Part shown: one piece after another, positions 1-3,000 of the stretch
Position numbering within the stretch: the stretch's first letter is position 1
Layout: the number at the start of each line of letters is the position of its first letter
Origin: Escherichia coli
GTDB lineage: Bacteria; Pseudomonadota; Gammaproteobacteria; Enterobacterales; Enterobacteriaceae
Length of the DNA: 64,000 nt
Assembly: GCF_013122565.1 (NCBI RefSeq)
Contig: NZ_CP053258.1
Direction: 5' to 3' (one strand)
Position numbers: made by a program

Positions 1-3000
1 TTAACCGGCAGTTTGTGTAGCAGAATGTTTTCCAGTTCCACTTTGTTGAAGTGTTCCGTGCCGTCGCCACCAAAGTACGGGAAGCCCACCTCAGCGATCT
101 CATCCTGGCTACCCAGCAGGCTCAGTTGCAGCTCGGTTTCTTCGCCAGTTTTGCCGTCGCGCTGCTCAAGATTCCATTTGCCCTTCTCGCCCCAGCGGAA
201 GCCAATAGAACCGTTCGGCGCAACCATTTCGCCATTGGTATTAAAGGCGACAGTTTTCCATTCCGGATTGTTTTCCTGGCCCAGCGCATCAACCAGATCA
301 GCTGCGCGCAGCATACGACCTGCAGCGTAGTAACCGTCGCGTTCTTCCAGCATCACCAGCATCGGCATGTCGGTATAGCGACGCACATAGTCGGTGAAAT
401 ACTGGCTTGGGTTGTCGAGGTGGAATTCACGCAGCATTACGTGGCCCATCGCCAGCGCCATTGCCGCATCGGTGCCTTGTTTTGGGGCCAGCCATAGATC
501 GCACAGTTTGGCGATTTCAGCGTAGTCTGGTGTGACGGCAACAGTCTTGGTGCCTTTGTAACGCACTTCAGTAAAGAAGTGAGCATCCGGGGTTCGCGTC
601 TGCGGCACGTTTGAACCCCAGGCGATGATGTAGCTGGAGTTGTACCAGTCAGCAGATTCCGGTACGTCAGTTTGCTCGCCCCAGGTTTGCGGAGACGCAG
701 GAGGCAGGTCGCAGTACCAGTCGTAGAAGCTTAAGCAAGTACCGCCAATCAGCGAGAGATAGCGCGCACCCGACGCGTAAGAAACCATCGACATTGCCGG
801 AATTGGCGAGAAACCAGCGACACGGTCCGGGCCGTAGTTTTTGATGGTGTAAACGTTAGATGCGGCGATCAGTTCGTTCACTTCCTGCCAGGAAGAACGA
901 ACAAAACCACCGCGTCCACGCGCCTGCTTAAAGCTTTTCGCTTTATCGGCGTCTTCAATGATAGAAGCCCATGCCTCAACCGGATCGCTATGCAGCGCCT
1001 TCGCTTCACGCCACATTTTCATCAGGCGTTTGCGCATCATCGGGTATTTCAGGCGGTTGGCACTGTAAAGATACCAGGAGTAGCTGGCACCGCGCGGGCA
1101 GCCGCGAGGTTCATGGTTTGGCAGATCCGGACGGGTACGCGGATAGTCAGTCTGCTGGGTTTCCCAGGTGACCAGACCGTTTTTGACGTAGATTTTCCAG
1201 CTGCAGGAGCCGGTGCAGTTTACCCCGTGGGTAGAGCGGACGATTTTGTCATGCTGCCAACGCTGGCGATATCCATCCTCCCAGTCACGGTTGGTATTGA
1301 GAAGCTGGCCATGCCCATCGGCAAAGGTTTCACCCTTCTGTTTGAAGTAGCGAAACCGGTCCAGGAATTTACTCATCGGTTTTCTCCTGTGGGAGCCTGT
1401 CGGCCCTCTGATAAATCGACATTGCTAATGTTTAAGGGCAAGGTAACGCTCTGAAACAGCGTGGGAATTGATAACGATCAAGAGTGATGGGGATGAAAAA
1501 TAAAGTAAATTCCTAAGATACCCCTTTAGGATAATTAACAGCCACAACATAACAGACTGTAAATTAAGACATTTTATACCTGTAGTTATTTAAACTATTG
1601 AGATTTTTATGCAGATGGGTATTAAGGAGTATTCCCCATGGGTAACATATTAATGGCTCTTAATGAAATCCGGCGAAATAAACCATATAACATTAGTATG
1701 TTGTAACTAAATAACGCATAAAAAAAGCGCGACATCATGCCGCGCAAAGGATAATCAAATATTTTACTCTATATAATTCGGTTTACAGGAAGGCGGCAAG
1801 TGAATGAATCCCAGGAGCTTACTAAAGTAAGTGACTGGGGTGAATGAACGCAGCCGCAGCACATGTAACCCGAAGTATGACGAGTAACGGTTTATTTTTT
1901 AGAATGCCGACCATATACCGCCCAGGTAATCACTACGCAGGCGATATAGAAAATCAAAAATACCTTCATTGCGCCGACTGGCGAACCCGTTAATGCCAGC
2001 GAGCTACCAAACGCTTTCGGGATAAAGAAGCCACCAATCGCGCCAATCGCAGAGATGAAACCCAGCGCCGCCGCCGTGTCGGTTGCCGCTTCACGCATCG
2101 CACGTTCGTCAGAACCCCCTTCTGCTTTCACGCGATCCATTGTCAGTTTACGGAAGATCACTGAAATCATCTGGAAAGTGGAACCACTACCCAGCCCAGC
2201 TGTCAGGAACAGCGCCAGGAAGACCGCGAAGAACGCCATGAAGCTTCCGCCCTGCCCGTCAGTCGGTAAGGTCAGGAACAGCAGGCCGCTGAAAATCGCC
2301 ATCAGAATAAAGTTCACCAGCGTGACACGAGTTCCGCCCAGACGGTCAGATAATGCACCACCTGCAGAACGCGCCAGCGCACCAATAAACGGCCCGAAGA
2401 AAGCGTATTGCAGAATCTGAACATCCGGGAACTGCGTTTTTGACAGCATCGCAAAGCCCGCGGAGAAGCCGATAAAGGAGCCGAAGGTTGCCAGATACAG
2501 CAGGCTCATAATCCACAGATGACCCCGTTTGAGTACCGGCAACTGCTCCTTGATGGAGGCTTTCGAGGTAGCAAGATCGTTCATGCCAAACCACGCCGCA
2601 ATGGTGAAGATGGCAAGGAACGGCACCCATATCCAGGACGCATTCGCCAGATACAGCTCAGTCCCATCCGGCTGTTTGACGCCCTGGCTACCAAATACTG
2701 CGAAAATCGACAGTGATACCACCAGCGGAGCAACCAACTGCATGACGCTGACGCCCATATTTCCCAGACCACCATTCAGACCCAGCGCGCCACCCTGCTT
2801 CTGTTTCGGAAAGAAGAAGCTGATGTTTGCCATACTGGATGCGAAGTTCGCGCCAGCAAAGCCGCACAGCAGAGAGATGATGATGAAGACGCTATAAGGC
2901 GTGGAGGTATCCTGCACGGCAAAACCCAGCCAGACGCAAGGAATAATCAGAATACCGGTGCTGAACGCCGTCCAGCGACGACCACCGAAGATAGGAACCA

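What the first reader, a model, noticed from the sequence alone, without database searches (positions are those of the whole stretch)
1746..1891. Long structured narK 3' UTR ending at a strong terminator; candidate NarS-like sRNA
The narK stop (1892-1894) is followed on the minus strand by ~150 nt containing an internal palindrome (cccagg...cttactaaagtaag...ctgggg) before the terminator at 1719-1745. A 3'UTR-processed sRNA (NarS) has been described from narK in Salmonella; the E. coli-like sequence here has the architecture to encode an equivalent.
Basis: inference. Interest (0 to 1): 0.4.

Follow-up and report, generated by a model that had tools for sequence, protein, structure and literature searches.

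The report
Known NarS sRNA carrying ERIC repeat

Summary
narK stops at 1894..1892 (minus strand). About 146 nt of strongly structured RNA follows (fold z = -4.25), ending at an intrinsic terminator (stem 1745..1727, T7 1726..1720).

Window 1903..1720 is 100% identical to the annotated E. coli K-12 ncRNA narS (b4813), and 1954..1720 is identical to the published K-12 NarS-L coordinates.

NarS function rests on a short module. The seed AUUUGAUUAUCCUUU (1760..1746) is a perfect 15-nt complement of the nirC Shine-Dalgarno and start codon. It is followed directly by the terminator. This module is conserved across at least 12 enterobacterial genera.

The flagged "internal palindrome" is not part of conserved NarS. 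It is a 122-bp ERIC/IRU miniature transposable element (1886..1765), bounded by TA and carrying terminal inverted repeats. It is present at narK in 2456 of 5426 complete E. coli genomes and absent from E. albertii and other outgroups. Paralogous copies number about 10 per genome.

Four Citrobacter species carry an independent ERIC, in the opposite orientation, in the same gap. The insert measures 123 bp, not the published "170 nt". The ~230-nt K-12 RNA therefore equals NarS-L plus ERIC.

Verdict: already known, low interest. The ERIC polymorphism is a modest side lead.

The parts
1892..1894 (-). narK stop codon (TAA)
   Evidence: ORF 1892..3289 (-); annotated as narK in matching E. coli records.
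1720..1954 (-). NarS-L equivalent (235 nt): the last 60 nt of narK coding sequence, the stop codon and the 3' UTR
   Evidence: 100% identical to K-12 1279286-1279520, listed as NarS-L in PMC8175672. The size matches the single ~230-nt Hfq-dependent 'intra-narK' RNA seen on a K-12 Northern blot (PMC4152368).
1720..1903 (-). narS as annotated in K-12 (b4813; NarS-S equivalent, 184 nt)
   Evidence: 100% identical to NC_000913.3 1279337-1279520, annotated 'putative small regulatory RNA NarS'.
1903..1908 (-). GCAUUC, counterpart of the Salmonella UCAUUC RNase E site that creates the NarS-S 5' end
   Evidence: Sequence GGTCGGCATTCTAAAAAA. PMC7038943 reports that UCAUUC->UCACAG abolishes NarS-L to NarS-S processing. 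Cleavage at this site was not tested here.
1765..1886 (.). ERIC/IRU miniature inverted-repeat element (122 bp, TAC...GTA), inserted between the narK stop codon and the NarS seed. The narK transcript carries the strand complementary to the ERIC2 primer.
   Evidence: A precise 123-bp presence/absence polymorphism. 51,836 copies in 5425 E. coli genomes, median 10 per genome. ERIC2 primer matches at 1825-1846(+) with 2 mismatches, 0 expected. Homology to 9 independent copies starts and ends exactly at these bounds. Terminal inverted repeats match at 15 of 20 positions.
1746..1760 (-). NarS seed AUUUGAUUAUCCUUU
   Evidence: Perfect 15-nt Watson-Crick complement of K-12 nirC AAAGGAUAAUCAAAU, which covers the SD and the AU of the AUG. 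The core TGATTATC is near-invariant in 23 sequences from at least 12 genera. Predicted mostly unpaired, mean P = 0.80.
1727..1745 (-). Intrinsic terminator stem-loop GCGCGGCAUGAUGUCGCGC
   Evidence: Terminator scan. The stem is supported by compensatory changes at 3 of 7 pairs across genera.
1720..1726 (-). U7 tail (transcript 3' end; Hfq-binding site in Salmonella NarS)
   Evidence: Hfq footprint on the poly-U tail reported in PMC7038943.

Best explanation
[quoted passage not shown] RNase E cuts the mRNA near and upstream of the stop codon, releasing a 3' fragment. The single-stranded seed of that fragment (AUUUGAUUAUCCUUU, 1760..1746) pairs with the ribosome-binding site and start codon of nirC and represses the nitrite importer. 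In this genome, as in K-12 and about 45% of E. coli, a 122-bp ERIC miniature transposable element has inserted at a TA between the stop codon and the seed. It folds as a self-contained hairpin, lengthens NarS by 123 nt (184/235 nt instead of about 61/112 nt), and leaves the seed and terminator intact and accessible.

Shown here: sequence identity to annotated narS; seed-nirC complementarity; conservation and covariation of the core; the repeat-family identity, polymorphism and boundaries of the insert.

Taken from the literature: RNase E processing, Hfq dependence and nirC repression (in Salmonella); a ~230-nt Hfq-bound RNA and RIL-seq pairing (in E. coli).

Inferred: that ERIC is a largely neutral passenger.
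For: Identity to K-12 b4813 and to NarS-L. A 15-nt perfect complement to the nirC SD/AUG. The seed-plus-terminator module lies directly after the narK stop in Escherichia, Citrobacter, Enterobacter, Lelliottia, Leclercia, Kosakonia, Pseudescherichia, Cedecea, Phytobacter, Silvania, Trabulsiella and Pluralibacter. It is absent from Klebsiella, Raoultella and Kluyvera, which matches the clade described in PMC7038943. Terminator covariation. The insert is a 123-bp presence/absence polymorphism, with 2456 filled genomes among 5426. ERIC identity rests on the primer match, about 10 paralogues per genome, plasmid copies in at least 10 genera, the alignment with sharp TAC...GTA bounds, and agreement with ERIC as described in PMC3184786 and PMC2267715 (about 127 bp, TIRs, flanking TA, one long stem-loop, 19-21 copies in E. 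coli). The seed stays unpaired with ERIC (P = 0.80) and without it (0.72). A K-12 Northern blot shows a single ~230-nt Hfq-dependent RNA (PMC4152368).
Against: No Rfam family matches the NarS core, so no curated RNA model supports it. I could not retrieve a Salmonella narK 3' UTR for a direct pairwise comparison, because the genome scan's 80-locus limit excluded Salmonella. nirC repression has been demonstrated in Salmonella, not in an ERIC-bearing E. coli, as far as the papers read here show. nirC was taken from K-12 because it lies outside the window. The K-12 Northern blot shows only the long form, so the annotated 184-nt form may not be the main species in ERIC+ strains.
Confidence: 0.9

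Rival explanations
1. ERIC is not a neutral passenger but changes NarS biogenesis or activity. Its hairpin may sit close enough to the stop-codon RNase E site to impede the NarS-L to NarS-S cut, may protect the RNA, or may create a new RNase E entry site as reported for ERICs in Yersinia. ERIC+ and ERIC- E. coli would then differ in NarS level, size or nirC repression.
For: Size arithmetic: Salmonella NarS-L (~110 nt) plus 123 gives about 233, and K-12 shows a single ~230-nt band with no ~184-nt species reported. ERICs downstream of genes are reported to create RNase E sites and alter upstream mRNA decay (PMC3184786 summarising De Gregorio 2005). An independent ERIC insertion in the same gap in four Citrobacter species could reflect selection. 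The ERIC hairpin base lies only 17 nt from the NarS-S cleavage site.
Against: The K-12 Northern blot was done under low-expression conditions, not anaerobic nitrate, so the absence of a short form is weak evidence. The seed and terminator are identical in filled and empty alleles, and predicted seed accessibility is unchanged. Recurrent insertion is equally explained by a TA-rich, non-essential target just upstream of a terminator, the usual niche of such elements. The two insertions have opposite orientations, which argues against a single selected RNA function.
Confidence: 0.3
2. The hairpin acts mainly in cis on narK mRNA, as a 3' stability or decay determinant for the transporter message rather than through NarS.
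For: The published ERIC paradigm, in which transcribed ERIC hairpins modulate neighbouring gene expression (PMC2267715 and PMC3184786). The element begins 5 nt after the narK stop codon.
Against: narK already has a strong terminator hairpin as a 3' barrier. 55% of E. coli and all outgroups lack the element. There are no expression data.
Confidence: 0.15
3. In E. coli this is only a terminator plus a selfish repeat, and NarS function is confined to Salmonella.
For: The functional experiments on nirC were done in Salmonella. K-12's annotation says 'putative'.
Against: The perfect 15-nt seed-nirC complementarity is kept in E. coli. The seed is conserved across at least 12 genera while its flanks diverge. 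E. coli has an Hfq-dependent ~230-nt RNA and NarS-nirC RIL-seq chimeras, and 8 RIL-seq partners are listed.
Confidence: 0.04
4. An independent antisense RNA related to Vibrio AS5 is made from the plus strand.
For: A full-length sub-threshold Rfam match to V_AS5 on the + strand at 1762-1884 (30.9 bits, E = 2e-4).
Against: The score is far below the family's gathering threshold of 96 bits. ERIC-type repeats are known in Vibrio cholerae (PMC2267715), so the resemblance is most simply shared repeat ancestry. Promoter-like sites are no more frequent than in shuffles.
Confidence: 0.03

Closest known systems
NarS (STnc2040), the RNase E-processed, Hfq-dependent sRNA from the narK 3' UTR of Salmonella enterica (Wang et al. 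2020, PMC7038943); annotated as narS b4813 in E. coli K-12
   Same: Same locus and strand. The seed lies directly upstream of a Rho-independent terminator. The seed is complementary to the nirC SD. An RNase E-type motif sits at the narK stop codon. The sequence is 100% identical to the K-12 narS annotation.
   Different: It carries a 123-nt insertion between the processing site and the seed, so the products are 184/235 nt instead of 63/~110 nt. The contiguous duplex with nirC is 15 nt here against the 14 bp reported for Salmonella.
ERIC / IRU elements (Sharples & Lloyd 1990; Hulton et al. 1991), ~127-bp enterobacterial miniature inverted-repeat elements
   Same: Length of 122 bp. Terminal inverted repeats. 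TA at both ends. A single long stem-loop. The core carries the ERIC2 primer site and, with a 1-nt deletion, the ERIC1R site. About 10 copies per E. coli genome. Located in a transcribed intergenic region next to a stop codon.
   Different: Nothing essential. This copy lies inside a functional sRNA, which I did not find described in the searchable literature.
Yersinia ERICs that modulate neighbouring mRNA decay through RNase E (De Gregorio et al. 2005, as summarised in PMC3184786)
   Same: An ERIC co-transcribed at the 3' end of a gene in an RNase E-processed transcript.
   Different: No expression data exist for this copy. An effect on narK or NarS is only a hypothesis.
Rfam RF02818 V_AS5 (Vibrio RNA AS5)
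   Same: A full-length alignment to the same long imperfect hairpin (30.9 bits).
   Different: Well below the gathering score of 96 bits and on the opposite strand to narK. Best explained as shared ERIC-like repeat ancestry, not membership.

Membership tests
NarS sRNA | Encoded in the 3' end / 3' UTR of narK on the same strand | tested here: met
   narK 1892..3289 (-); NarS 1903..1720 (-); narG follows downstream.
NarS sRNA | Conserved single-stranded seed upstream of the terminator, complementary to the nirC Shine-Dalgarno region | tested here: met
   15 contiguous Watson-Crick pairs with K-12 nirC, from the SD to the AU of the AUG. Seed near-invariant in 23 sequences. Mean P(unpaired) 0.80. 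nirC was taken from K-12, not from this genome.
NarS sRNA | Rho-independent terminator with a poly-U tail (the Hfq site) | tested here: met
   8-pair stem plus U7; compensatory changes across genera.
NarS sRNA | Sequence homology to an accepted family member | tested here: met
   100% identical to K-12 b4813 and to the published K-12 NarS-L/S coordinates. A direct comparison with the Salmonella sequence was not possible.
NarS sRNA | Released from narK mRNA by RNase E at a UCAUUC-type site near the stop codon | not testable with these tools
   The motif GCAUUC is present at 1908..1903. Cleavage has been shown only in Salmonella (PMC7038943).
NarS sRNA | Hfq binding and dependence; FNR/NarL-dependent expression; repression of nirC | not testable with these tools
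   From the literature only: an Hfq-dependent ~230-nt RNA in K-12 (PMC4152368) and RIL-seq NarS-nirC in E. coli (PMC7038943).
ERIC / IRU repeat | Dispersed multi-copy family in enterobacterial genomes | tested here: met
   51,836 places in 5425 of 5426 E. coli genomes, median 10 per genome. 321 plasmids from at least 10 genera.
ERIC / IRU repeat | Conserved central core (the ERIC-PCR primer sites) | tested here: met
   ERIC2 matches at 1825-1846(+) with 2 mismatches, 0 expected. ERIC1R misses at <=3 mismatches because of a 1-nt deletion, but its site is present in the family consensus. Primer sequences confirmed in 185 papers.
ERIC / IRU repeat | ~127 bp with terminal inverted repeats, folding into one long stem-loop | tested here: met
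   122 bp; TIRs match at 15 of 20 positions; hairpin -37.3 kcal/mol, z = -4.4; sharp homology bounds. Description from PMC3184786 and PMC2267715.
ERIC / IRU repeat | Insertion at TA with TA flanking both ends; presence/absence between related strains | tested here: met
   Filled and empty alleles differ by exactly 123 bp. This equals a 122-bp element plus the TA duplication minus a 1-nt deletion. The flanking dinucleotides here are degenerate (T-TAC...GTA-AA).
Rfam V_AS5 (RF02818) | Score at or above the curated gathering threshold (96 bits) | tested here: not met
   30.9 bits; not reported in the gathering-threshold scan.

The most novel reading that the evidence does not exclude
The ERIC insertion is a natural, segregating 'switch' in NarS biogenesis. 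In the ~45% of E. coli that carry it, and independently in some Citrobacter, the 122-nt hairpin placed 17 nt downstream of the RNase E site changes how NarS is matured. The ~230-nt NarS-L-type species would dominate instead of a short NarS-S, changing how strongly nirC is repressed. Strains would then differ heritably in nitrite-import control because of a miniature transposon inside an sRNA.
Probability: 0.2. Interest if true: 0.5.

Novelty: already known. Interest (0 to 1): 0.18.

Why it matters
As a discovery it matters little, because NarS in E. coli is published and annotated and ERIC elements have been known since 1990-91. The check has three practical values. First, it stops the ERIC hairpin from being mistaken for NarS structure. 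Anyone building a NarS model or probe from K-12 would include 123 nt of mobile repeat that also occurs about 10 times elsewhere in the genome. Second, it corrects the published description of a "170-nt insertion": the insert measures 123 bp and is an ERIC, so the 230-nt K-12 RNA corresponds to NarS-L, not NarS-S. Third, it identifies naturally occurring ERIC+ and ERIC- alleles, plus an opposite-orientation Citrobacter insertion. These offer a ready-made test of how a miniature transposon affects maturation and function of a 3' UTR-derived sRNA.

Tried and rejected
1. Rfam, with a permissive scan of 1300-2300 and a gathering-threshold scan of the whole window. There was no NarS family hit. The only hits were a sub-threshold V_AS5 match, explained as ERIC ancestry, and a chance-level RyhB terminator match at E = 0.35.

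2. Direct comparison with Salmonella NarS. The NarS paper has no supplements held and prints no sequence. I used the cross-genus alignment and the K-12 annotation instead.

3. The primary ERIC papers (De Gregorio 2005; Wilson & Sharp 2006) are not held. I relied on the reviews PMC3184786 and PMC2267715. I therefore could not check whether the narK-narG ERIC is already in the Wilson & Sharp catalogue, which is likely.

4. The ERIC1R primer search failed at <=3 mismatches. The cause is a 1-nt deletion in that arm, not absence of the site.

5. RNA.duplexfold of full-length NarS against the nirC leader over-extended the duplex into structured regions. I replaced it with an explicit count of contiguous Watson-Crick pairs.

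6. A promoter inside ERIC or an antisense gene was considered and rejected. Promoter-like sites are no more frequent than in shuffles.

7. Small ORFs overlapping the region (1844..1993 +, 49 aa; 1622..1747 -, 41 aa) were considered and rejected. They are mechanical ORFs inside a repeat or an intergenic region with no supporting evidence.

Full report
**1. What is in the sequence**

On the minus strand, the narK ORF (1892..3289) ends with TAA at 1894..1892. narX lies divergently at 3622..5418. narG begins about 515 nt downstream of narK and runs off the window, which matches the annotated E. coli loci.

After the stop codon come 146 nt. An intrinsic terminator follows, with stem GCGCGGCAUGAUGUCGCGC at 1745..1727 and U7 at 1726..1720. 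The 3' UTR folds into one long imperfect hairpin plus the terminator hairpin, at -52 kcal/mol with z = -4.25 against dinucleotide shuffles.

**2. The locus is the known sRNA NarS**

- E. coli K-12 MG1655 (NC_000913.3) annotates ncRNA narS, b4813, "putative small regulatory RNA NarS", at 1279337-1279520. Window 1903..1720 (-) is 100% identical to it.
- Window 1954..1720 is 100% identical to 1279286-1279520. PMC8175672 lists that span as K-12 NarS-L, and 1279337-1279520 as NarS-S, with 8 RIL-seq partners.
- The paper that defined NarS in Salmonella (PMC7038943) describes a 63-nt NarS-S and a ~110-nt NarS-L, cut from narK mRNA by RNase E at UCAUUC and UUAUU motifs. The RNA is Hfq-dependent and FNR/NarL-controlled, and it represses nirC through a seed that pairs with the nirC SD. 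The paper explicitly includes Escherichia in the family and cites E. coli Hfq co-IP and RIL-seq data.
- In K-12, a single ~230-nt RNA called "intra-narK" was co-immunoprecipitated with Hfq. It was lost in an hfq mutant and unaffected by RNase III (PMC4152368).

**3. Where the NarS function sits**

The K-12 nirC leader reads ...UUUAAAGGAUAAUCAAAUGUUU. Window 1760..1746 (AUUUGAUUAUCCUUU) is its perfect 15-nt Watson-Crick complement and covers the SD and the AU of the start codon.

I fetched narK loci from one genome per species and listed the sequence after each stop codon. The block TTGATTATCC followed at once by a GCGCGG...CCGCGC-T(6-9) terminator is present in Escherichia (including E. albertii), Citrobacter, Enterobacter, Lelliottia, Leclercia, Kosakonia, Pseudescherichia, Cedecea, Phytobacter, Silvania, Trabulsiella and Pluralibacter. 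It is absent from Klebsiella, Raoultella and Kluyvera. This matches the clade given in PMC7038943.

In a 23-sequence alignment the seed core TGATTATC is nearly invariant. The upstream sequence is free to vary, and the terminator stem shows compensatory changes at 3 of 7 pairs. The functional module is therefore 1760..1720. Only its first 15 nt fall within the flagged interval.

**4. What the "internal palindrome" is**

A search of 601 nt around the site against 5,426 complete E. coli genomes found the whole stretch in only 2456. All sampled others match in two pieces spanning 478-480 nt. Alignment shows a clean 123-bp presence/absence difference directly after the stop codon. The seed and terminator are identical in both alleles.

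- **Dispersed repeat.** The segment occurs at 51,836 places in 5425 genomes, with a median of 10 per genome. Exactly 2456 genomes have a copy at >=99% identity, which is this one. The rest have only paralogues at <=90%. It also occurs on 321 plasmids from Salmonella, Escherichia, Klebsiella, Citrobacter, Enterobacter, Pantoea, Kosakonia, Yersinia and others.
- **ERIC core.** The standard ERIC2 primer matches the core at 1825-1846(+) with 2 mismatches, where 0 are expected. ERIC1R misses only because of a 1-nt deletion, and its site is present in the family consensus. The primer sequences are confirmed in 185 papers.
- **Element ends.** In an alignment with five plasmid copies and four Citrobacter copies, homology begins at an invariant TAC and ends at GAGTA, and the flanks are unrelated. 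The element is thus 122 bp (1886..1765). Its terminal inverted repeats match at 15 of 20 positions, and the hairpin folds at -37.3 kcal/mol (z = -4.4).
- **Match to the published description.** These properties fit ERIC as published: about 127 bp, a MITE with TIRs, flanking TA, a single long stem-loop, and 19-21 copies in E. coli (PMC3184786 and PMC2267715).
- **Junction arithmetic.** A 122-bp element, plus a TA target duplication at the CG-TA-AT of the empty allele, minus a 1-nt deletion, gives 123 bp.
- **The V_AS5 hit.** The sub-threshold Rfam match on the plus strand (30.9 bits against a threshold of 96) is best read as shared ERIC-like ancestry, because ERICs are known in Vibrio.

**5. 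History of the insertion**

E. albertii, Escherichia sp. MOD1-EC7003 and a divergent "E. coli" species representative all have the empty site. By parsimony the insertion arose within E. coli. The >=99% identity of all 2456 copies is consistent with a single event.

Four Citrobacter species (C. youngae, C. werkmanii, sp. wls619, sp. Cu233) carry an ERIC in the same stop-codon-to-seed gap but in the opposite orientation. Five other Citrobacter are empty there. That is an independent insertion. This short TA-containing spacer is either an insertion hot spot or a tolerated site.

**6. Consequences for NarS**

The empty allele predicts a 61-nt NarS-S, close to the 63 nt in Salmonella. The filled allele predicts 184 nt. 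ERIC folds on itself, and the mean unpaired probability of the seed is 0.80 with ERIC and 0.72 without. The simplest reading is a tolerated passenger.

One published detail needs correcting. PMC7038943 explains the ~230-nt E. coli RNA as NarS plus a "170-nt insertion", but the insertion measures 123 bp. Since 110 (NarS-L) + 123 is about 233, and K-12 NarS-L is 235 nt, the only species seen on the K-12 Northern blot corresponds to the NarS-L 5' end. Two explanations remain open. ERIC may hinder the second RNase E cut, whose site lies 17 nt upstream of the hairpin. Alternatively the result may reflect the non-inducing conditions of that blot. ERICs have been reported to create RNase E sites and to change neighbouring mRNA decay in Yersinia (summarised in PMC3184786). 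I rate a real functional effect at about 0.2-0.3.

**7. Comparison with what is known, and novelty**

The locus meets every sequence-level criterion for NarS and for ERIC (see the membership table). RNase E cleavage, Hfq binding and nirC repression cannot be tested here and rest on the literature. I found no searchable paper that links ERIC to narK or NarS, and I could not read the Wilson & Sharp ERIC catalogue. The ERIC-in-NarS description may therefore be a small new annotation point, but both components are well known. Overall the finding is already known and of low interest.

**8. Limits**

- No Salmonella sequence was obtained.
- nirC came from K-12, not from this genome.
- The window's genome is at best 99.4% identical to any complete E. 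coli, so it is an Escherichia or Shigella lineage outside that collection. The narS region itself is nonetheless identical to K-12.

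Noticed in passing
L078 2901-3024, L012, L011, L009 (Citrobacter youngae, C. werkmanii, Citrobacter sp. wls619, sp. Cu233): An independent ERIC insertion, in the opposite orientation to the E. coli one, lies in the same gap between the narK stop codon and the NarS seed. Five other Citrobacter species (L008, L010, L013, L014, L041) have the empty site. This suggests an insertion hot spot or a tolerated site inside NarS.
   Followed up: partly
window 1695-1710 (minus strand), 9 nt after the NarS terminator T-run: A 16-nt block, TTAGTTACAACATACT, is conserved (<=2 mismatches) downstream of 34 of 80 narK/narU-like genes. These include genera that lack the NarS seed (Klebsiella oxytoca, Kluyvera, Raoultella terrigena). 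It lies about 320 bp upstream of the narG start. It could be a far-upstream narG regulatory site, but its function is unknown to me.
   Followed up: partly
window 1620-1660 (minus strand): TACCCATGGGGAATACTCCTTAATACCCAT contains three TACYYMT-type heptamers, and the core CTACCCCTTAATACC is conserved across genera. From memory this looks like the known NarL-binding cluster of the narG control region. I did not test it.
   Followed up: no
PMC7038943 against window 1765-1886: The NarS paper describes the E. coli difference as a '170-nt insertion'. The measured insertion is 123 bp. The ~230-nt K-12 RNA therefore corresponds to NarS-L (about 110 nt) plus ERIC, not to NarS-S plus 170 nt.
   Followed up: yes
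L035 2860-2910 (Citrobacter freundii M-21, NZ_JAALBX010000014.1): An additional narK-like gene (84% identity to NarK) carries a NarS-like tail (TTGTTATCCTTTGCGCGGCGAGTCCGCGC-T8). Its downstream context is different, with no narG-type conserved blocks. It may be a displaced or mobile narK-NarS copy.
   Followed up: no
window 10783-10848 (-) and 52109-52187 (-): The whole-window Rfam scan finds one rdlD-type antitoxin RNA (86 bits) and the sRNA C0299 (112 bits). From memory, K-12 has three tandem ldr/rdl copies in this region, whereas only one rdl hit passes threshold here.
   Followed up: no
window 1-9000: The best identity to any of 5,426 complete E. coli genomes is only 99.4% over 9 kb, and 99.5% over the 601 nt around narS. 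The source is probably an Escherichia or Shigella lineage not in that collection. The 235-nt NarS-L region is nonetheless 100% identical to K-12.
   Followed up: partly
plasmid records CP061267.1 (171 kb) and CP061233.1 (1.0 Mb), E. coli from sheep: A 'plasmid' record carries narK with the identical ERIC copy (100% over 122 nt). This is probably a chromosomal fragment deposited as a plasmid rather than a mobile narK.
   Followed up: no
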